This document shows positions 1 through 12,278 of a stretch of DNA of 12,278 bases, piece after piece. A program made the translations under genes and the position numbers. The stretch covers positions 26,191,400-26,203,677 of the forward strand of contig CM119263.1 of the NCBI GenBank assembly GCA_051294375.1, written 5' to 3'. The notes beneath the pieces are model-generated. The model did no database searches, was not told the DNA's origin, and was given only the letters and a program-made list of their open reading frames with translations. Source of the stretch: Paraspadella gotoi (lineage: Eukaryota > Animalia > Chaetognatha). Positions within the stretch are counted from its first letter, which is position 1. Every line of letters begins with the position of its first letter.

Positions 1-362
1 TGACCATTTATGCCAAGACAAAAATATGCCAGTTGACCAAATTCTTAAAGTTGACCAAATTATGCCAGTTGGACCAAATTCTGCAATGTTGATCAAGTTC
101 TGGCAAGTTGACCAAATTATGCCTGTTGACCAATTAGGCCAGTTGATAAAATTATGCCAGTTGACCAAATTATGCCGGTTGGACCAAATTATCTTAATTG
201 ATCAAATTATGTCAGTTGACCAAATTTATGTCAGTTGACCAAATTATGTTCAGTAGGACCAATTATGTCAGGTAACCCAAATTATGTCTGTTGACCAAAA
301 TTATGCAAGATGATTTAAATTATGCAAGTTGACCAAGTTAGCTTATTACCACTTAATTATCG
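1..362 (+). repeat. 18-bp tandem satellite (GTTGACCAAATTATGCCA)n plus flank; inverted copy of 8923-9297
   Basis: About 18 monomers. The order of variant monomers and the flank GTTAGCTTATTACCACTTAATTATCG match the reverse complement of 8923-9297. Confidence 0.9.
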
Positions 363-2742: not shown

Positions 2743-2815
2743 TGAGAGAGATGAGAGAGAGAGAATTTTTAAAAATGTTTTTGTTTTTTTAATTTAAACT
2801 CTTTTCCACTCCTAC

Positions 2816-3171
2816 TAGGGCCAATCTTTGTCAATGGGGTGGGTCAGAAGTTTGGTTTGGGAACCTTTCTAAAATGGCTCAAAGCACTAGTAATTAATTT
2901 TTAAATATTTATTTAAAAAAAATTATTTATTCTTTTTTATTAATTCTATTTTTAATATTTTGATGATAAGTTGGTCAAAATTAGGAAAAACCTTAAAAAA
3001 TCATCAACATAATCATTATGTAATGATTTAAACAGTTTTTGCTAATTTTCATTAAAAAATATCAAAATTTTAAAAGGTTGTAATTTGATTTTTTGCTCAA
3101 CTTTTTGAGCTCTATCAGAATCAATTAAAAAACTTTAAATATTAAAAAAAAAAATTTGGTCGGCTTCTGCT
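2816..3171. mobile_element. 356-bp insertion with 8-bp target-site duplication (MITE-like, possibly hAT-type)
   Basis: ACTCCTAC occurs at 2808-2815 and 3172-3179. The paralogous element has the empty site CCACTCCTACGATTCC at ~9450-9465. A partial second copy lies at ~11090-11245. TIRs are weak. Confidence 0.65.
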
Positions 3172-3477
3172 ACTCCTACGATTCCATCAAAAATTTATTT
3201 CCAGCTTAATTGCATACTTTCTACCCACACACAAAATATAAATTAAATTTATCTATCCAATTTTTAATAAATATAATAATTATGAGTAAATATAAGTAAA
3301 AATACTAAAGGTAAATATGACTTGTTTTTTCCATTTAAACTCATTTCCACTTGCACGATTCCAACAAAACTTTATAAAATTATATCCAGCTCAATCACTC
3401 ACTTTCCTACCCACTCACAAAATTTCATTCCAATCCAACCATCCAATTACGAGTAATTGGAGTTTTTTGCTAAGGTG

Positions 3478-3552
3478 GGACAGACGGATGGATGGATGGA
3501 TGGACGGACGGACGGACGGACAGACAGACAGACAGAGACAAACGGACAGACA
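3478..3552. repeat. Compound (GGAT)n(GGAC)n(AGAC)n microsatellite
   Basis: Seen directly; typical of DINE-1/HINE elements. Confidence 0.9.
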
Positions 3553-4380
3553 TCTTTTTTTTGCATAATTTATCAAAATTCAATGTTCTGACTTGAAATA
3601 AGTTAATGCCCGACAAGATTGAGGGGGCGGACCGATGGACCGACAAAGTGGATTATAGAGTCGGGATCATGTCATTGATGAGCACATAACTAAGAAAGTA
3701 GGCAAGCGAGACTACTGGGAGTTGAAAAATTAAAAAAACGTCAGCGATTTTTTTACCAGGGTGCAAAATCTGAAGTCGTTTTATCAGATAATTTAGCCAC
3801 AGTATTTGAGCATTTCATTTAACTCCCACTTGAAATCCGTGTAAAAGCTTCAGAACCATAGACCTGTCATTCATCGTATGTTTTAATTTATTATTTAGGA
3901 ATATGTGGCAATCCAGTTATCCAGCTATCCCTCCGGATGTCCAGTGTAATTTTTTTCATTTTTAATCTTCTTCAAGTATTGTAAAATTTCAGAAGAAAAA
4001 AGATGTCTTTTTTACATTCAGCTTTGCGGTAGAGTACTTCATTTAAAAAAATTATTGCTCTTACACAGATGGCCTAATTTTAATAAAAATTTATGCCAAA
4101 CTTATTATCTTTCAATAAACTTTAAATCACTTTTAAATTTTTTTTAAAAATTGAATTTTATAGGGTGATTTTTAAAGTCTGAAATAAAGTGGTACCTTTT
4201 TTTTTGCACAGGACAGTAATATAACAAAAATTTTTTTTATTATTTTCATTTTTATAGTAATTGAATATTCACTCTTTTTTATTGAAGTTATATAGTGAAG
4301 AAACAGTAATGATTGTTATGTGTTAGTGACAGTCTGGTGGTCCTATCACCACAGATGGATTAAAGCTATTTCTTTCGCAG

Positions 4381-4437
4381 TGGCTCAGTGGACTAATGCA
4401 CCATCCCAATGTGTGTCCCTGGTTCGAGCCCTGAGGT
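4381..4437 (+). promoter_or_regulatory. tRNA-like Pol III internal promoter in B LTR1
   Basis: A box TGGCTCAGTGG at 4381-4391 and B box GGTTCGAGCCC at 4421-4431. The acceptor-like stem GCCTCAG/CTGAGGT is visible in the LTR2 copy (4816-4867). Confidence 0.8.
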
Positions 4438-4439
4438 TG

Positions 4440-4520
4440 TCATGTAGAAAGTGGGACGGACCGGGTAACCCGCCTGTAGGCAACGGCCTGCTGCCAGATC
4501 CAAAGCTCTGCACTACATGA
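4440..4520 (+). ncRNA. Predicted twister ribozyme, type-P5 permutation (B LTR1)
   Basis: P5 TCATGTAG/CTACATGA; GA-CGGA; U^AA-CCC-GC; P3 hairpin; P4 CAGA/TCTG with loop TCCAAAGC. One T1 mismatch. Confidence 0.75.
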
Positions 4521-4592
4521 ACATGCTGTTTCGCTGTCGCCACGAGGTGACACCGCTGCGGGTGTGGCGCCCTGTAAAACCAGCCTCTTCAA

Positions 4593-4606
4593 TGGTGAGG
4601 CCGACG
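4593..4606 (+). promoter_or_regulatory. Primer-binding site, tRNA-Trp-like (element B)
   Basis: TGGTGAGGCCGACG lies 1 nt after the LTR end. The complement of the metazoan tRNA-Trp 3' end is TGGTGACCCCGACG. Confidence 0.75.
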
Positions 4607-4869
4607 CAAACCGGGCCTGATAATACTCCTCTGCCCTTGATGTGGTTTGAGCTACGCAGCTGCCACTCAACGCATAGGCCACCAGAATGAAGAGAGGTTC
4701 AGCGGAGAGACATGCGCTTCATCCCCTGCTTCGTACTCTCATATGTGAGAGTCCTGGGGGCAGCTGTCTGGTGGTCCTATCACCACAGATAGATTAAAGC
4801 TATTTCTTTCGCAGCGCCTCAGTGGCTCAGTGGACTAATGCACTATCCCAATGTGCGTCCCTGAGGTTG

Positions 4870-4950
4870 TCATGTAGAAAGTGGGATGGACCGGGTAACC
4901 CGCCTGTAGGCAAGGGCCTGCTGCCAGATCCAAAGCTCTGGACTACATGA
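4870..4950 (+). ncRNA. Predicted twister ribozyme, type-P5 (B LTR2, best-preserved copy)
   Basis: T1 TGGA/TCCA is perfect, T2 GC/GC, P4 CCAGA/TCTGG, P5 8 bp, conserved GA and UAA. Predicted cut at 4896^4897. Confidence 0.82.
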
Positions 4951-5040
4951 ACATGCTGTTTCGCTGTCGCCACGAGGTGACACCGCTGCGGGTGTGGCGC
5001 TCTGTAAAACCAGCCTCTTCAACAGAACCGTTCAATATAA

Positions 5041-5114
5041 GCAGTCTCTAAGCTTCAGATCAAGCTGTAACACAGAGTTACAGGCGGGTTAAGCGCCCCG
5101 TCCCTCTTAACTGC
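5041..5114 (-). ncRNA. Predicted twister ribozyme, type-P5 (A1 3' LTR)
   Basis: Minus strand reads GCAGTT AAGAGG GA CGGG GCGCT TAA CCC GC CTGTAAC-TCTGT-GTTACAG CTTGA TCTGAAGC TTAGA GACTGC. T1 is retained through G-U pairs. Confidence 0.75.
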
Positions 5115-5117
5115 AAG

Positions 5118-5189
5118 ACGACCACCGGGCTAGAACCTCGGACCTTTGGGTTCGGAGGCGAATGACTTGCCTCCGGCAGCAATGGCCGC
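5118..5189 (-). promoter_or_regulatory. 72-nt tRNA-derived module (degenerate A/B boxes) in family A LTR; paralogues at 6122-6193, 8361-8432, 8771-8842
   Basis: Acceptor-like stem GCGGCCA/TGGTCGY, A-box-like TGGTGCCGGAGG, B-box-like GGTTCTAGCC, and anticodon-like loop CTCCCAA in three of the four copies. Confidence 0.7.
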
Positions 5190-5359
5190 TGATGAACAGT
5201 TGGTGGATTTTAGTCCACCATACATCCCCCCAGGGAGAAGTCTGTTGCGTCTCGTCAGTAAATTGTTGTTGGTGGAATATTCGTCACCAAGTTGAGGCAT
5301 GTCGCTTGATGTGTTGATGGCAGAAATTGCATCGCCAGGTTGAGGTATGTCGCCTTAAA

Positions 5360-5372
5360 GTCGGGCTCACCA
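5360..5372 (-). promoter_or_regulatory. Primer-binding site, tRNA-Trp-like (A1; identical at 8630-8642 in A2)
   Basis: TGGTGAGCCCGAC lies 1 nt after the LTR end CTCTTCA; 12/13 match to the tRNA-Trp 3' complement. Confidence 0.8.
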
Positions 5373-5390
5373 ATGAAGAGACAGTAATTA

Positions 5391-6003
5391 TTAAGGCGTA
5401 GTGAAAGTTACATATGGAAATTCTAAAAGTCAATTATGAACAACATACCATCAGTGAACATTAATTTGTAAAAAAAATTAATTTTATGTCTTTTAATTTT
5501 TGCAGTAGGCTATATTTATATATAGTACTATCCTTATAAAATCGAAAAAATTCAAAATAGGCTTTTCTTAATTTTGATTGCAGATTTGAATTCCTCGTCA
5601 AAAGTTGATAAAAGAAAATATAAATCATTTTTAAAATTGTTTCATTAAGTGGGTTAAAAATTAAAAAAACTATATTTATTATATTAAAAGTTAATTTTCA
5701 GCTTAAAATATAGCTTTTTCTAATTTTTGACCCACTTAATGAAGGAATTTTTCAAAAAGAGTTATATTTCTTTTTATCAACTTTTTATGACGAATCAAAA
5801 TCTGCAAAAAAATCTTAGAAAAAACTGTTTTGAAATTTTAACATTTATTGGTTTAGAACTAGTATAAATATGGCTTACTGCGTAAATTGTAAAATTTATT
5901 CTAAATTTTTTTATTACATAAATGTTCATTAATATAATGTTGTTCGTTCCTCACTTTTAGAATTTTAATTAAAATTAAATTTAGAAATTTTACTACGCTT
6001 TAA
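5391..6003. mobile_element. 613-bp foldback MITE inserted in A1 5' LTR
   Basis: Termini TTAAGGCGTAGTGAAA / TTTTACTACGCTTTAA. The arms pair along their whole length (e.g. TTCATTAAGTGGGTTAAAAATT with AATTTTTGACCCACTTAATGAA). TAATTA is duplicated at 5385-5390 and 6004-6009. Confidence 0.85.
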
Positions 6004-6044
6004 TAATTATTGTTATGTATTAATGACAGAACCGTTCAATATAA

Positions 6045-6118
6045 GCAGTCCCTGAGCTTCGGATCAGGCTGTAACACCGAGTTACAGCCGGGTTAAGTGC
6101 CCTGTCCCTCTTAACTGC
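6045..6118 (-). ncRNA. Twister ribozyme, mutated copy (A1 5' LTR)
   Basis: Same fold with L4 TCCGAAGC, but T2 GC is changed to GG and T1 has an A.C mismatch. Confidence 0.65.
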
Positions 6119-7553
6119 TAGGCGACCACCGGGCTAAAACCCCGGATCTTTGGGTTGGGAGGCAAATGACTTGCCTCCGGCACCAATGGCCGCTGATTAA
6201 CGGTTGGTGGATTTTAGTCCACCATAATAGTAATGTTCTAAAATTTTTTTTTATTTAGTAAAAACAATTACGTGCCTATCTTGTGACTACCCATATGAAG
6301 GTGCATCTCCCAGTTTTATTGTTCACGAAAAAACCAATGGTTTCAACAATTTAAACTCTACTTCTAATACCAAGATGGAAAAAAAATTGTCGCATTTTAA
6401 TGTAAGAATCGAAAAATAAAAATTAGATATCAAGAAACTTTGGCCTCTTGTGATTTATATGAGCTGTATCTTATTTATGTACGACAAAAAATACAAGAGT
6501 TCCATGCAAAAGAAAATGAGTTGTCCAAAAAAATGCTTCCTTCTTTTTATCTTTTTCATATCTACACTTTTCATTTATATTAATTTCGGTTCTTTTTTAT
6601 TACTTTTTGAGTTAAACCGTTACTATTATCCCTGCCTTTTCTCTGTCTCATGTCAAATGGTTATTGCATCATCTCTATTAGGATAGATTTGTCAAAAAAG
6701 TACGATATTAAAAATAAATTGATGCTGTAGATGCTCCAGAATATTTTTATTTACGTCTGGATGTATTATCAGAACGAAGTATCAAACAAGTCTAAAAAAA
6801 AAAAATCAAAGATTTTGTTGAACGGAAAGACAATGCATCATCACATTATACAGTAACAACTCAAGCCAAAAACCATTTTTTGCCCAAAATCTGATAAAAT
6901 ATTAATAATAATATGAGTAGTCCTCTTGATCAAAAAGAGGTAAAAACAGAGGCAACCTCTTTTGGAAGTTATAAAGTCCAGACGACCATAACCCAGATGC
7001 TCTTTTTGTCTCCCAAATCAGAAAAATATTGACTTTCGGCTCACTGTCAATTTTTTGCGATCATTCAGCGTTTGGACGGGACTCTTATAAGTGTTTGTGT
7101 CTAATAATAATTGATATTTTTATTGATTATTAGTAGTATTCTGATATAGATATTTCAATTGCTCGCCGGAAAGAGCAGATGGAATATCTATATGCTTTGA
7201 TTTTTTTATTAAGGTACCATTAAATATCAACAAGACGATTCCCAAGGCATAAGAAACATTTAATATTAACTTTCTGGCGCCGCCGCCCCCCGGGTTTGAG
7301 GGTGGTTTCTGTCCCGACGTCTTCTCCCTCTCCGCTAGGTCGAGGAGGGGTTCTACAAAGTAATTGTATGCAATAAATAATTTTATGCTGTTGAGAAATG
7401 AAATGTTTATTCAGGCCTAGGGAGGTCATATTACATTTTAAAACCTATTTAACGGCCAAAAAATTTATTTGACAATGAAATTAACCGACTTTTCCAAACC
7501 GCGACAATTTTTTTTCCATCATGTTGTGTACTCTTAACATCGATCATATGTGC

Positions 7554-7633
7554 CTATAATGTCAGTGTACAAGCCGAAATTTGGGCTCGGAAGCTTATTC
7601 CTCTTGTTGTTTGTTCCGAAACACAATAACTTC
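7554..7633 (-). CDS. Terminal coding exon of unidentified Cys-rich protein: (G)SYCVSEQTTRGISFRAQISACTLTL*
   Basis: Phase-1 acceptor TAGTAG, open in the frame set by the preceding exon, TAG stop at 7554-7556, 84-bp intron. Confidence 0.7.
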
Positions 7634-7717
7634 CTACTAATTTATAATCAGTGTAATCATTACAAATAAGGAATTATCTCTTAAACTACGCATTTATATT
7701 TATTTCCTATGAATTAC

Positions 7718-7862
7718 CCGGACTTTTCCTTTTACAAAAATCAAAAATTATCCTGTCCAGATCGCCAACGTCAGTATTGCATTCAAGACCGCATTGCCTG
7801 ATTTCTTTTCTTTTTACGACGTTACAAAACTTGGAATTTCCATTACATCGGTAGAGACAAAA
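7718..7862 (-). CDS. Coding exon FCLYRCNGNSKFCNVVKRKEIRQCGLECNTDVGDLDRIIFDFCKRKSP
   Basis: TTTCTTTCCAG acceptor, GTAATT donor, 145 bp open in phase 0 to 1, 76-bp upstream intron. Confidence 0.8.
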
Positions 7863-7938
7863 CTGGAAAGAAACTTTATTAACCCATCAGAGGAATGATA
7901 AATTTTTAAAACTTTTTCTAATTTGTTTGTAAGTTTAC

Positions 7939-7992
7939 CTTTCGACATCGAATGAACTCGAATGGGCCTTCCTGAGAAGGATCGATTGCGAT
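7939..7992 (-). CDS. Coding exon IAIDPSQEGPFEFIRCRK
   Basis: TTTTTCTTTAG acceptor, AG|GTAAAC donor, 54 bp, phase 0 to 0. Confidence 0.8.
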
Positions 7993-8329
7993 CTAAAGAA
8001 AAATAAACAAAAATTTCTTATGAGTATATATGTGGATAAGGCGCTAAGTGGGCTGAAGAGTAGAGTGGAGGACTGGGGAACATTAATTTTATTTGAGTTA
8101 ACAAACAAGGATATTTAAACATGAAGTAGTATGATTAAGGAGTACAAAAATATTTTGCTTATATTGTTTGGGGAACAGTATCATTAATTATAATATATTT
8201 ATAGTAATAACCTTATAAAAAAATAAATTTTTAAAATATTTTTTTGTAAAATTTTTATTAAATATTCTGATTCTTTATGAAAAGTTAGATCAATAATATA
8301 ATACAATATGTTATTAAAAATTATAATGT

Positions 8330-8875
8330 TGAAGAGACAGTAATTATTGTTATTGTTAAGGCGACCACTGGGCAAGAAGCCCGAACCTTCAGGTTGGGAG
8401 GCAAATGACTTGCCTCCAGCATCAATGGCCGCTGATGAACAGACAGTTGGTGGATTTTAGTCCACCATACATTCCCCCCTCCTGTAGGGAGAAGTCTGTT
8501 GCGTCTCTTCAGTGAATTGTTGTTGGAAAGTGGAAAGTTGAGGCATGTCGCCTGATGTGTTGGTGGCGGAAAGTGCATCGCCAGGTTGAGGCATTTCGCC
8601 AGAAAGTGTTGTTACTGTTGTGTTCGGAAGTCGGGCTCACCAATGAAGAGACAGTAATTATTGTTGTGTTAGTGACAGAACCGTTCAATATAAGCAGTCC
8701 CTGAGCTTCGAAGCAGGCTGTAACGCGGTGTTACAGGCGGGTTAAGCGTCCTGTCCCTCATAACTGCTCGGTAACCACCGGGCAGGAACCCCGGACCTTT
8801 GGGTTGGGAGGCAAATGACTTGCCTCCGGCACCAATGGCCGCTGATGAACGGTTGGTGGATTTTAGTCCACCATA
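8330..8875 (-). mobile_element. Family A mini-LTR element (copy A2), intronic
   Basis: TSD ATGT at 8326-8329 and 8876-8879. 5' LTR 8644-8875 (232 bp), PBS 8630-8642, PPT AGGAGGGGGGAA 8472-8483. The 3' LTR 8330-8469 has the ribozyme segment deleted. Confidence 0.9.
8694..8767 (-). ncRNA. Twister ribozyme, mutated copy (A2 5' LTR)
   Basis: P5, P3, UAA-CCC-GC and AAGC are intact. The P4 closing pair and T1 (TTCG/CAGG) are degraded. Confidence 0.65.
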
Positions 8876-8889
8876 ATGTCTTCAGCATC

Positions 8890-9333
8890 AACAAGTTTGA
8901 GCAAACAATGTCGGATCTGCCTACGATAATTAAGTGGTAATAAGCTAACTTGGTCAACTTGCATAATTTAATCAACTTGCATAATTTGGTCAACTGACAT
9001 AATTTGGTTAACTGACATAATTTGGTCTACTGACATAATTTGGTCAACTGACATAATTTGGTCAACTGACATAATTTGATCAATTAAGATAATTTGGTCA
9101 ACCGGCATAATTTGGTCAACTGGCATAATTTTATCAACTGGCCTAATTTGGTCAACTGGCATAATTTGGTCAACAGGCATAGTTTGGTCAACTTGCAGAA
9201 CTTGATCAACTTGCAGAATTTGGTCAACTGGCATAATTTGGTCATCTTTAAGAATTAGGTCAACTGGCATATTTTTGTCAATTGGCATAATTTGGTCAAT
9301 CAATCAATCATTCAATCATTCAATCATTCAATA

Positions 9334-9374
<41 letters not shown>

Positions 9375-9966
9375 GAGAGAGATAGAGAGAGAGAAACTTT
9401 AAAAAATTCAAATAAATGTGTCTTTTGGTTTTCTAATTTGAACTCTTTTCCACTCCTACGATTCCATCAAAAAATTTATATCCAGCTTTATCACATACTT
9501 TCCTACCCACACACAAAATTCAATTTCGATTTATCTATCCAATTTTTAATAAACATAAAAATTATGAGTAAATTTAAGTAAAAATACTTCAAGTAAATAT
9601 GACTTTTGTTTTTTCCATTTTAACTCATTTCCACTCGCACAATATCCACTCATGAGCAATTGGCGTTCAAATAGTGAAATATATTTTTTTGTTTTTTCCA
9701 TTTAATTCCATTGATCTTAATTTCCACTCGCACAATTCCCTCGAAACTTCATATCCATCTCAATCACACAGTTTCCTACCCACACACAAAATTTCATACC
9801 AATCCATCCATCCAATCACGAGTAATTGGAGTTTTTTGCTAAGGTGGGATGGACGGACGGACGGACATCATTTTTTTTGCATAATTTATCATAATTCGAT
9901 GTTCTGACATGATATAAGTGTGTGCCCGACAATATTGAGGGGGCGGACCGACGAACCGACAAAGTG
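8890..9966 (-). mobile_element. Helentron/DINE-1-like element with 18-bp satellite (8947-9300), (TCAA)n, (GA)n, (GGAC)n
   Basis: Collinear with 1556-3650. Confidence 0.65.
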
Positions 9967-10247: not shown

Positions 10248-10506
10248 TATACATACATATACAAAGACAGCAAAAACACATTGTTCCATCGCTCTACCCT
10301 ACTAAAGAGTCATATACGCAACTTCTTTAACCCCATCTTACAGCCATGGAACGGGTCCTCGGCATGGAACCAGGCTTGAGATTTTTCTACGCCCAAGGCG
10401 GTTTATGGCCGTACTCACGCTTAACCCAGGGTAGGTACTGCGTTAGGATTGAACCCGGTACCTAATGATCATGAGCTGACGGCTTTACTCAATGAGCCAC
10501 CGGGTC
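10248..10506 (-). mobile_element. tRNA-derived SINE
   Basis: Minus strand: GACCCGG TGGCTCATTGAG (A box)...CTCATGA (CAT anticodon-like)...GGTTCAATCC (B box), GC-rich body and (TATG)n tail. No clear TSD. Confidence 0.75.
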
Positions 10507-10715
10507 ATAGAATTAAGTATTAGATTAGAATCGTTTATATGCGGGGTGAACCTAGGCAATGCCCGACTAGCGACTACATAAGTCTTTACTTCAAGCAAAT
10601 TTATTGTTTGTTGTTTTTTTATTTTTATATAAATTTATAATTAGCAAAATCATAAACATTTACATGCCAAAAATACTTATTGTACCCTTTTTTAATGAAT
10701 AACTTCAAATCTTAC

Positions 10716-10840
10716 TTCTTGGTATGTCTTTACTTCAAATTCTGTTTTCAGTGATAATTCTCTGACATTTCTTGCGAGCTTATCTGACGTGAAAGCCGCT
10801 CCCCAACGGTCAAGGTCCAATTGAATCCGATTGTTTCTTT
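10716..10840 (-). CDS. Coding exon RNNRIQLDLDRWGAAFTSDKLARNVRELSLKTEFEVKTYQE
   Basis: Strong TTTTTTTTGTTTGCAG acceptor, GTAAGA donor, only one open frame. Its phase-0 end matches the exon at 7939-7992. Confidence 0.75.
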
Positions 10841-11089
10841 CTGCAAACAAAAAAAACATTAAATGTAAGAATCATGAATTTTATTTAGTACAATTTTCCG
10901 AAAGCACCCAATTTCTGTTTTTTATAAGTTTCTTAATATTAATCTTTAGATCTAATAATCTAATAATCTAATCTAAAGTTTAGAGCAGAAAATCAGAATC
11001 TCAAATAATTTAAAAATCAGAACACTTGAAAAACCGATCTTAACTTTGGCTAATGTGGGCAAACATCTTGATTTTGCAATAGGATATAA

Positions 11090-11245: not shown

Positions 11246-12102
11246 AGATAGGAAACGTCAAAAAAATGTTTTAAAATTTTGTACAGGGTAGTGAATCAAA
11301 ACTTAGAATAGTATTATCATCACATTTTATAGTCCAAAAGTTATCGAATGTCTTTTTATAATATAAGCGCCGGTAAAAAGACGCTGTCATTTGCAAACCA
11401 GTGGTTATTTCATTGATTTTAAAAATTAATTGAGTAGAAAATATTAAAGTCATTTATGTGTTCAAATTTTATATTGATCAGTTAAGATATGCCCTGACAA
11501 TGAGTGGAGAAAGTTGGCTTTTAAAATCGGGTTTCACTTTCCAACTCACTGTTTTTAAATTCTTTTTTTTTCAACTTTTAGCACTTTTTTAAACAAAGTA
11601 TTTATTAAGATATTAACAATATTAATATCCACAAAAGCTATTAAAAAATGAAGAGAATGATATACTTACGAAAGATCTAACATAAAAAGTAAGCTGCACA
11701 GCCTTGGTTTAATTAAGAGAGTCAAAAGTGAATTATTTAAAATTTTAAATCTTTTTTTAAAATATATGACCTGTTTAAATTATTATGAATTAAATTATTA
11801 TTATTTATATAACTATCATGAAAGAGCATGACAAAAAAAGATTTAAGATAGCCAATCACAATTTGATAAAAATCTTAAATTTACCCTCCAGCTATTGATT
11901 TTTGGAAAGATGTTTTGTTTTTAAGTATCCTAATTAAATTACAGCTGGGCCGGTTAAACTTTATACTACAGTATTTGTAAGTATGTCATTCTCTTTAGAT
12001 TTGAAAGGGCTCTCCGAAGATAATAATATTAAGAATATTTCATTTCAATTTTTTTCAGAAAACTTATTATGTGATAATCCTTTCTTTTCGTTGTAAATGA
12101 TT

Positions 12103-12203
12103 TAGAGAAAAAACAAAGTTTTATTAGTTTCAACGAATTTGTTTTTATTGAAAAACAATAAAAACAAATTCGTTGAAACTAATAAAACTTTGTTTTTTCT
12201 CTA
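12103..12203. repeat. Perfect 48-bp inverted repeat with 5-nt loop
   Basis: 12103-12150 is the exact reverse complement of 12156-12203; the loop is AAAAA. Confidence 0.95.
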
Positions 12204-12278
12204 GAAAACTTATTGAAAATAAGATAAAAAATCGAATCTAAAAAAATCTTAAAAGCAATAGGGATCGAGCCGCTTTCG

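What the first reader, a model, noticed from the sequence alone, without database searches (positions are those of the whole stretch)
4296..8875. Mini-LTR retroelements whose LTRs hold a tRNA-like Pol III promoter fused to a twister ribozyme ('twister LTR-retrozymes')
Seen: three non-coding ~550-690 bp elements (A1, B, A2; A1 sized without its nested insertions) with paired LTRs, 4-bp TSDs (ATAG, ACAG, ATGT), PBS and purine tract. The LTR layout is 5' hairpin, tRNA-like module, 2-3 nt, twister-like fold, CTCTTCA. Known: plant LTR retrozymes carry hammerhead ribozymes in their LTRs; Cassandra TRIMs carry 5S Pol III promoters; animal retrozymes are typically non-LTR hammerhead repeats. Inference: this element supplies its own Pol III promoter, self-processes with twister, and borrows RT/integrase from an autonomous LTR retrotransposon. 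I do not know of a described element with this combination, but could not search.
Basis: partly seen in the sequence, partly recalled or inferred. Interest (0 to 1): 0.95.

Follow-up and report, generated by a model that had tools for sequence, protein, structure and literature searches.

The report
Mini-LTR retroelements carrying twister-type ribozymes
Small non-coding jumping elements in this genome carry in their end repeats a tRNA-like sequence, likely a promoter, followed directly by an RNA fold predicted to be a self-cutting twister ribozyme, so they would likely cut their own RNA into unit-length, possibly circular, copies, a new twist on a known kind of element.

Summary
A1 (4296-6226, two nested insertions), B (4333-5021) and A2 (8330-8875) have paired LTRs, exact 4-bp TSDs, a tRNA-Trp-type primer site and tRNA-like LTR modules. 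The addition is a P5-permuted twister-like fold 3 nt after the tRNA-like module, in 5 of 6 LTRs and in a probable solo LTR of a third family (10303-10573). The core UAA, GA and both pseudoknots are kept; 11 of 22 pairs change on both sides across three families. Against: Rfam twister models give no hit, stem P1 is missing, no cleavage or RNA data exist, and no relatives were found in public contigs. Two published wasp Helenus families show, by eye, an unreported type III hammerhead at the same LTR position with the same primer type, which suggests the slot selects for self-cleavage. Best reading (0.5): Pol III-type LTR retrozymes that self-cleave in both LTRs, likely circularise, and borrow Gypsy enzymes. 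New variant of a known kind; interest 0.72.

The parts
4296..6226 (-). Element A1 (family A TRIM), about 619 bp without its two nested insertions; TSD ATAG 4292-4295 / 6227-6230
   Evidence: contigs leave the element with unlike flanks at 4296 (47 in run X1, agreement 0.4) and 6226 (61 in X1, 13 in X9)
6011..6226 (-). A1 5' LTR, main part (its last 18 bases lie at 5374-5391 beyond the MITE): hairpin, tRNA-like module 6193-6122, twister-like domain
6044..6118 (-). Twister-like domain, A1 5' LTR; predicted cut between 6095 and 6094; one T1 and one T2 pair broken in this copy
5392..6002 (.). 611-bp AT-rich MITE-like insertion with terminal inverted repeats and an 8-bp duplication (5384-5391 / 6003-6010, one mismatch); hAT-like by TSD length (family trait recalled)
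   Evidence: joints skipping it
5360..5372 (-). A1 primer-binding site, 12 of 13 bases as the tRNA-Trp PBS in Fig. S2 of PMC10886601
5225..5231 (-). A1 purine tract, followed by TG and the 3' LTR
5026..5222 (-). A1 3' LTR, main part (rest 4296-4332): hairpin, tRNA-like module 5189-5118, twister-like domain
5040..5114 (-). Twister-like domain, A1 3' LTR; predicted cut between 5091 and 5090
4333..5021 (+). Element B (family B TRIM), 689 bp; TSD ACAG 4329-4332 / 5022-5025
4333..4591 (+). B 5' LTR: hairpin, box A 4381-4391, box B from 4421, twister-like domain, GC-rich U5 hairpin, CTCTTCA
4441..4519 (+). Twister-like domain, B 5' LTR; predicted cut between 4466 and 4467
4593..4605 (+). B primer-binding site, tRNA-Trp type (11 of 13 bases)
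4756..4764 (+). B weak purine tract (five G), then TG and the 3' LTR
4767..5021 (+). B 3' LTR: hairpin, 7-bp acceptor stem 4816-4822 / 4861-4867 with T arm deleted, twister-like domain
4871..4949 (+). Twister-like domain, B 3' LTR, the most complete copy (T1 3/3, T2 2/2, P4 5/5); conserved GA at 4885; predicted cut between 4896 and 4897
8330..8875 (-). Element A2 (family A), 546 bp; TSD ATGT 8326-8329 / 8876-8879; 5' LTR 8644-8875, PBS 8630-8642, purine tract 8472-8483, 3' LTR 8330-8469 lacking the twister-like domain
8693..8767 (-). Twister-like domain, A2 5' LTR; predicted cut between 8744 and 8743
10303..10573 (-).
   Evidence: boundaries chosen after the fact
10349..10430 (-). Twister-like domain of family C; predicted cut between 10405 and 10404; L4 and one T1 pair depart from the core

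Best explanation
These are non-coding LTR mini-retroelements of the Helenus kind (paired LTRs, tRNA-Trp-type primer site, 4-bp target duplications, tRNA-like LTR module) whose LTRs carry, right after that module, a circularly permuted twister-type fold predicted to self-cleave, so that they likely work as Pol III-driven LTR retrozymes. Steps: (1) inferred: Pol III starts at the box A/box B module of the 5' LTR; (2) predicted: the RNA cuts itself at U^A in each LTR, releasing one unit (430 nt in B) with 5'-OH and cyclic-phosphate ends and no terminal repeat; (3) inferred by analogy with retrozymes: a host RtcB-type ligase closes the unit into a circle; (4) inferred: tRNA-Trp primes a Gypsy reverse transcriptase, which runs round the circle and rebuilds two LTRs without strand transfer; (5) shown: insertion left 4-bp duplications; inferred: by a Gypsy integrase that trims two terminal bases. 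Shown: the layout, the TSDs, high repetition, and conservation of the fold across three families.
For: Layout and TSDs. Core order GA-T1'-N6-UAA-P2-GC-P3-P4-U-T1-AA-GC-P4'-P5' in 6 of 6 domains, with fixed spacing, box B 45-50 nt upstream of UAA in the 5 of 6 that keep a box B. On the 6-row alignment 90.9% of cells pair and 11 of 22 pairs change on both sides, including 2 of 3 T1 pseudoknot pairs; slid structures give at most 2, and 0 of 500 shuffles reach it (three families only, structure drawn from these sequences). A model built from A and B alone ranks C as its best hit outside the training copies and their reverse strands (18.4 bits, rough E 1e-5; next 7.0 bits). Family A and B P3 starts and the L4 loop resemble S. 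mansoni twisters (Table 1 of PMC8501958). A viral sequence with the same UAA-CCC-GC strand passes Rfam Twister-P5 (41.6 bits, cut-off 37.6), and that model has no P3 and a long P1, which can explain the miss here. At the two core positions broken in A1's 5' LTR, 91-100% of contig depth in runs X1, X5 and X9 shows a letter that pairs. P1 is reported dispensable (PMC5408937). Two Synergus Helenus families with a tRNA-Trp PBS show by eye a type III hammerhead at the same LTR position. Retrozyme cycle and RtcB ligation are published (PMC4918200, PMC7229834). The B unit folds as a circle better than 59 of 60 shuffles (z -2.1; modest).
Against: No Rfam twister match even at E<=10 on 106-121-nt stretches or E<=1 on the window. 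P1, listed as an essential stem, is replaced by an unpaired 6-nt linker, and PMC8501958 calls cleavage without P1 inefficient. P2 has two or three pairs instead of four. The domains alone are not unusually stable (z -0.05 to -1.75 for five A/B domains, +0.43 for C) and the predicted minimum-energy folds often differ from the twister fold. T1 pairs in only 77.8% of cells. A2's 3' LTR lacks the domain. Box A and box B of family A each depart from the consensus. Lack of T4 runs is not significant (502 and 523 of 2000 shuffles also lack them). No tandem multimer, circle junction or RNA was seen or testable. No autonomous partner is in the window.
Confidence: 0.5

Rival explanations
1. The fold is an active but slow twister that serves as a leaky 3'-end former. 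Transcripts that escape cutting in the 5' LTR and are cut in the 3' LTR keep a terminal repeat of about 110 nt and are copied by ordinary LTR strand transfer as linear RNA. The ribozyme replaces the T-rich stretch that follows the tRNA-like module in many Helenus LTRs.
For: P1 is missing, which may slow cleavage. Many published Helenus LTRs have a T-rich run at this position, by eye and not counted; the window's elements have none there. Cassandra transcripts start and end in the two LTR modules (PMC10886601). The 5' hairpin would be transcribed only in the 3' LTR and could make the two sites unequal (inference).
Against: Both LTRs are the same sequence, so at most about a quarter of transcripts would be productive. 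The Synergus hammerhead at the same position looks complete, with a long loop-loop pairing, which suggests efficient double cutting. Fish Helenus LTRs lack a T run and show no ribozyme by eye.
Confidence: 0.22
2. The fold derives from a twister but no longer cuts. It entered the LTR with a tRNA-headed SINE-like module and is kept as a structural element (stability, packaging or RT recognition); the elements replicate like ordinary Helenus.
For: Rfam misses it; P1 absent, P2 short; C departs in L4 and T1. Kojima proposes that Helenus arises by SINE insertion into an LTR. No activity data.
Against: The invariant columns are the catalytic ones (UAA, GA, L4 U/A/G/C), while stems and the 6-nt linker diverge with two-sided changes. 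A non-catalytic role would not need the scissile UA and the general-base G fixed in three families whose LTRs are otherwise near shuffled similarity (A vs B 148 matches, shuffled mean 143).
Confidence: 0.18
3. The ribozymes cut, but their job is to release the unit from host Pol II transcripts (the elements sit between probable exons, A and C on the gene's strand), and the tRNA-like module acts as RNA structure or is a decayed promoter.
For: Family A boxes are imperfect; 7-bp acceptor stems are kept in A and B, which a promoter does not need; read-through release is the role proposed for ribozymes in R2, RTE and retrozymes. Probable exons on the - strand near 10716-10841 and 7817-8017 (unconfirmed).
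Against: Families B and C have good box A and box B at tRNA-like spacing; B lies on the opposite strand; the exons found no homologue.
Confidence: 0.1

Closest known systems
Helenus TRIMs (TRIMp3; Kojima 2024, PMC10886601), above all Helenus-2_SyJa and Helenus-2_SyUm of Synergus wasps
   Same: Non-coding, under 1 kb, two LTRs with a tRNA-like box A/box B module, PBS, PPT, 4-bp TSD in animals, Gypsy-type primer site. The two Synergus families share the tRNA-Trp PBS and, by eye, the layout 5' hairpin, tRNA-like module, ribozyme, short tail.
   Different: The paper reports no ribozyme in any LTR ('twister' 0 times, 'ribozyme' once, in a reference title). No twister core seen by eye in the animal LTRs of its Data S1. 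The Synergus motif is a type III hammerhead. The window's LTRs end CTCTTCA and start TA/TC; no sequence match to a published family was seen.
Plant LTR retrozymes (Cervera et al. 2016, PMC4918200)
   Same: Non-autonomous, a self-cleaving motif in each LTR, PBS, PPT, 4-bp TSD, presumed Gypsy partner; proposed circle as RT template.
   Different: Type III hammerheads, tRNA-Met PBS, plants, no tRNA-like module described in the passages read; circles are shown there and untested here.
Type-P5 twister ribozyme (Rfam RF02684; class review PMC5408937)
   Same: Order of parts, UAA with the scissile UA, GA before T1, L4 with T1 and T2 partners, P2, P4.
   Different: No P1 (6-nt linker), P3 present (absent from the Rfam P5 model), 3-nt P2 strand with a bulge or mismatch, T1 not CCC/GGG; no Rfam score.
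Twister T-variants of Perere-3 in Schistosoma mansoni (PMC8501958)
   Same: Twister with weak or missing P1 inside an animal retroelement; similar P3 start and L4.
   Different: P1-type order, at the 5' end of an autonomous non-LTR element, one copy per element.
Animal non-LTR retrozymes (PMC7229834; bioRxiv 10.64898/2026.07.22.740005)
   Same: Short non-coding ribozyme-bearing units in animal genomes, circularised by RtcB in vitro.
   Different: Type I hammerheads in tandem repeats, described as lacking LTR, PBS and PPT, tied to Penelope-like elements.

Membership tests
Helenus (TRIMp3) | Short non-coding element with two LTRs | tested here: met
   546-689 bp, LTR pairs 91-97%; no long ORF
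Helenus (TRIMp3) | tRNA-like sequence with boxes A and B in the LTR | tested here: met
   Boxes found in B and C, imperfect in A; ARAGORN at 80% threshold 4 of 7 modules vs 3-5 of 300 shuffles; none at default
Helenus (TRIMp3) | PBS for the 3' end of a tRNA, Gypsy type in animals | tested here: met
   12 of 13 (A) and 11 of 13 (B) bases as the tRNA-Trp PBS of Gypsy-32_NVi and Helenus-2_SyJa; host tRNA not available
Helenus (TRIMp3) | Polypurine tract before the 3' LTR | tested here: inconclusive
   Clear in A2 (12 purines) and A1 (7), only five G in B
Helenus (TRIMp3) | 4-bp TSD (animal families) | tested here: met
   3 of 3 full elements, plus probable solo LTR C
Helenus (TRIMp3) | Identity with a named family in Repbase or Dfam | not testable with these tools
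   Libraries not on hand; no match seen by eye or by six motif terms in Data S1
Helenus (TRIMp3) | Pol III transcription | not testable with these tools
   Unproven for Helenus too; T4-run test not significant
Twister ribozyme, type P5 | Conserved L1 and L4 nucleotides (UAA, GA, U..AAGC) | tested here: met
   UAA and GA in 6 of 6; AAGC in 5 of 6, ATGC in C
Twister ribozyme, type P5 | Pseudoknots T1 and T2 | tested here: met
   T1 77.8% paired with 2 of 3 pairs changed on both sides; T2 91.7% paired, invariant
Twister ribozyme, type P5 | Stems P2 and P4 | tested here: met
   P4 5 pairs, 86.7%; P2 2 pairs plus one across a bulge, shorter than the four described; same short form in Rfam-passing L380
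Twister ribozyme, type P5 | Stem P1 | tested here: not met
   6-nt linker with at most one wobble pair in 6 of 6; reported dispensable in vitro or inefficient without it
Twister ribozyme, type P5 | Score against Rfam twister models | tested here: not met
   No match, while 5 of 9 viral control loci matched
Twister ribozyme, type P5 | Self-cleavage at U^A | not testable with these tools
   Needs in vitro assay
LTR retrozyme | Hammerhead (type III) in each LTR | tested here: not met
   No hammerhead match in the window; a twister-like fold stands in its place in both LTRs of A1 and B, in one LTR of A2
LTR retrozyme | Unit-length circular RNA in cells | not testable with these tools
   No run on record as RNA; contigs only

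The most novel reading that the evidence does not exclude
Animals have their own LTR retrozymes: a branch of Helenus TRIMs, primed by tRNA-Trp, in which a Pol III promoter is followed by an interchangeable self-cleaving ribozyme (a P1-less, P3-bearing P5-type twister in at least three families here; a type III hammerhead in Synergus wasps). Each element would be a natural promoter-plus-two-twisters machine for making circular RNA, and the first twister described in an LTR.
Probability: 0.45. Interest if true: 0.87.

Novelty: new variant of a known kind. Interest (0 to 1): 0.72.

Why it matters
Twister ribozymes have few known jobs, and reviews describe animal retrozymes as lacking LTRs, PBS and PPT. 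An animal LTR element with a ribozyme in each LTR would join two separately described groups (Helenus and retrozymes), give twister a testable role in LTR retrotransposition, and address how a Pol III TRIM ends its transcript and rebuilds its LTRs. Two unrelated ribozyme classes at the same LTR position would be the usual argument that cleavage is what is selected. The variant is invisible to Rfam, so such elements are likely undercounted. It would also be a natural counterpart of engineered tandem-twister circular RNA constructs (mentioned in PMC7229834).

Tried and rejected
No whole genome is held, so no genome-wide census of copies, TSDs, multimers or partner Gypsy elements. Searches for relatives: strict pattern in viral contigs 0 hits; relaxed pattern 88 viral, 45 metagenome and 22 prokaryote hits. 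Of the first 133 loci none matched the window by BLAST, and 3 of the 45 metagenome loci had full T1 with P4 of at least 3 pairs, against about 2 expected by my rough estimate, so I treat them as chance; L098 (AT-rich) looked twister-like but had no tRNA module. Model R1 found no further copy in the window and nothing above 16 bits in 42 metagenome loci. Reciprocal test: R1 ranked the Rfam-passing L380/L381 first of 37 loci at 20 bits, but a pattern-selected prokaryote locus reached 18 and reverse-strand echoes 14-17.5: inconclusive. P1-type viral patterns: 3 of 120 loci (3-nt P2) and 5 of 121 (4-nt P2) passed a pairing filter; the two 3-nt P1-type candidates given to Rfam (L176, L189) got no match. 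T4-run depletion not significant. Host lineage not established: Pfam, protein atlas and homologue search on a probable exon gave nothing usable; 'animal' is inferred from the 4-bp TSD, the introns and the repeat content. The two 'taacccgc' hits in Ajax LTRs lack the rest of the core by eye. A tyrosine-recombinase (DIRS-type) reading was dropped because of the TSDs and tRNA PBS (family traits recalled). Earlier findings of this scan: none on this genome or sequence.

Full report
Observation. The window is 33% GC and no genome is held. Self-comparison and direct reading give three elements. A1 spans 4296-6226 on the - strand between ATAG duplications. B spans 4333-5021 on the + strand between ACAG duplications and sits inside A1's 3' LTR; A2's 5' LTR shows the empty site. 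A 611-bp MITE-like element with an 8-bp duplication splits A1's 5' LTR. A2 spans 8330-8875 (-) between ATGT duplications. The joint chance of the three 4-mers is about 2e-6 from local composition. LTR pairs are 91-97% identical over aligned columns. Contigs of run X1 (28,744 laid on 4260-6260) leave the element with unlike flanks at 4296 (47) and 6226 (61), so both ends are family ends and the elements are highly repeated (depth gives no copy number). Both families have a primer site matching the tRNA-Trp PBS printed for Gypsy-32_NVi and Helenus-2_SyJa (12 and 11 of 13 bases). The purine tract is clear in A and weak in B. In all three the integrated 5' end lacks the TG that follows the purine tract, which fits two-base trimming by an integrase (inference).

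The tRNA-like module. ARAGORN finds nothing at default, and 4 of 7 modules at 80% threshold, where 3-5 of 300 shuffles score for each of the four modules shuffled. B and C have good boxes A and B; A has one departure in each. A and B keep a 7-bp acceptor stem, and the next stem begins 3 nt after it in both. Each B LTR has lost a different piece of the module. Absence of T4 runs is not significant.

The twister-like fold. Six sites share the order GA, T1 strand, six-base linker, UAA, three bases, GC, P3 hairpin, P4, loop U-T1-AA-GC, P4, all closed by P5: five in A and B, none in A2's 3' LTR (deleted), and one in a probable solo LTR of a third family at 10303-10573. A generic descriptor finds exactly these six; 150 block-shuffled windows give a mean of 0.84 and at most 4. 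I wrote it after seeing A and B, so C is the independent case; a model trained on A and B alone finds C at 18.4 bits, next unrelated hit 7.0. On the six-row alignment 90.9% of cells pair and 11 of 22 pairs change on both sides, including two of three T1 pairs; slid controls give at most 2. This rests on three families and a structure drawn from them, so it is not a probability. Outside the motif A and B LTRs are barely above shuffled similarity (148 vs 143 matches). At the two core positions broken in A1's 5' LTR, 91-100% of contig depth in three runs shows a pairing letter.

Against it. Rfam 15 gives no twister match on the window or on two short stretches. P1 is absent and P2 is short. The domains are not more stable than shuffles. 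As calibration I fetched viral loci by pattern: 5 of 9 given to Rfam matched twister models, and L380, with the same UAA-CCC-GC strand, passed Twister-P5. The printed P5 model has no P3 and an 8-pair P1, the reverse of the window's form, which can explain the miss but does not prove activity. The review PMC5408937 lists P1 as essential in the consensus yet reports full activity without it; PMC8501958 says cleavage without P1 is inefficient. No relatives were found in viral, metagenome or prokaryote contigs. No RNA evidence could be had.

What is known. tRNA-like LTRs in non-coding TRIMs with 4-bp TSDs in animals are Helenus (PMC10886601; main text parts 1-4 of 6 read; supplement parts 1 and 5-10 of 11 read, two term searches of the whole file; fungal parts 2-4 seen only as snippets). 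The text never mentions twister and has 'ribozyme' once, in a reference. Reading the animal LTRs by eye I saw no twister core, but Helenus-2_SyJa and Helenus-2_SyUm show a type III hammerhead after the tRNA-like module, a 5' hairpin and a tRNA-Trp PBS; this was not machine-checked, and term searches can miss motifs split by line breaks. Plant LTR retrozymes have hammerheads in both LTRs and replicate through circles (PMC4918200, passages). Animal retrozymes are described as lacking LTR, PBS and PPT (PMC7761336 and PMC7229834, passages; bioRxiv 10.64898/2026.07.22.740005, passages). Twisters in retroelements are reported for non-LTR RTE types (PMC8501958, passages and one section). Also seen as passages: PMC6765202, PMC10085705, PMC5680766, PMC13570524. 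Roth et al. 2014 was not read. Nine searches listed no paper describing a twister in an LTR or a ribozyme in Helenus; the library lacks most subscription papers, bioRxiv supplements are closed, and Repbase and Dfam could not be searched. Earlier scan notes e1-9967494 and e1-9702518 (unchecked) mention a twister-headed retroposon and a twister that standard models miss; they are leads only.

Mechanism. Shown: layout, TSDs, repetition, conservation of the fold. Predicted: cleavage at U^A in each LTR, giving a 430-nt unit in B. Inferred: Pol III start at the tRNA-like module, ligation to a circle by a host ligase, tRNA-Trp priming, Gypsy RT and integrase in trans. I put this at 0.5; a slow ribozyme acting as a leaky 3'-end former on linear RNA at 0.22; a non-cutting twister-derived structure at 0.18; release from host Pol II transcripts at 0.1. 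That the fold cuts at all: about 0.8 summed over these readings, untested.

Verdict. Real feature. It works like an LTR retrozyme and meets the tested Helenus criteria (purine tract of B inconclusive). It is not a member of Rfam Twister-P5 as modelled, nor of the hammerhead-defined retrozymes. New variant of a known kind; interest 0.72, 0.87 if cleavage and circles are shown.

Noticed in passing
   Followed up: yes
PMC10886601 Data S1: Helenus-2_SyJa-LTR and Helenus-2_SyUm-LTR: By eye a complete type III hammerhead (core CUGAUGA and GAAAC, three stems, about 12 nt of loop 1-loop 2 complementarity) after the tRNA-like module, with a 5' hairpin; not mentioned in the paper. Not machine-checked.
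   Followed up: partly
window 5392-6002: 611-bp palindromic MITE-like insertion with an 8-bp duplication inside A1's 5' LTR; very repetitive in the runs.
   Followed up: partly
window 4333, 6226, 8875: All three integrated 5' ends lack the TG that follows the purine tract at the 3' LTR, so the processed end is TA or GA rather than CA; several published wasp Helenus LTRs also start TA.
   Followed up: partly
L380/L381 80-143 (+) and L377 77-131 (-): Viral type-P5 twisters with a 3-nt P2 strand; L380 passes the Rfam cut-off, L377 scores 25.3 bits. L176 and L189 look like P1-type forms with a 3-bp P2 that Rfam misses.
   Followed up: partly
window 1-360, 1770-2710, 8950-9300 with flanks 400-1150, 2750-3660, 9380-9960: Arrays of an 18-bp repeat embedded in longer dispersed repeats present in both orientations, probably another non-autonomous element family.
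   Followed up: no
window 12094-12212: Near-perfect 57-bp-arm palindrome (93% complementary); its Rfam miRNA matches are below cut-off and reflect the hairpin.
   Followed up: no
window 10716-10841 (-) and 7817-8017 (-): Probable short exons of a host gene on the - strand; no family or homologue found.
   Followed up: partly
window 4527-4575 and 4957-5005 (+): Family B has an extra GC-rich hairpin in U5 (about -22 kcal/mol for 4520-4591) that family A lacks.
   Followed up: no
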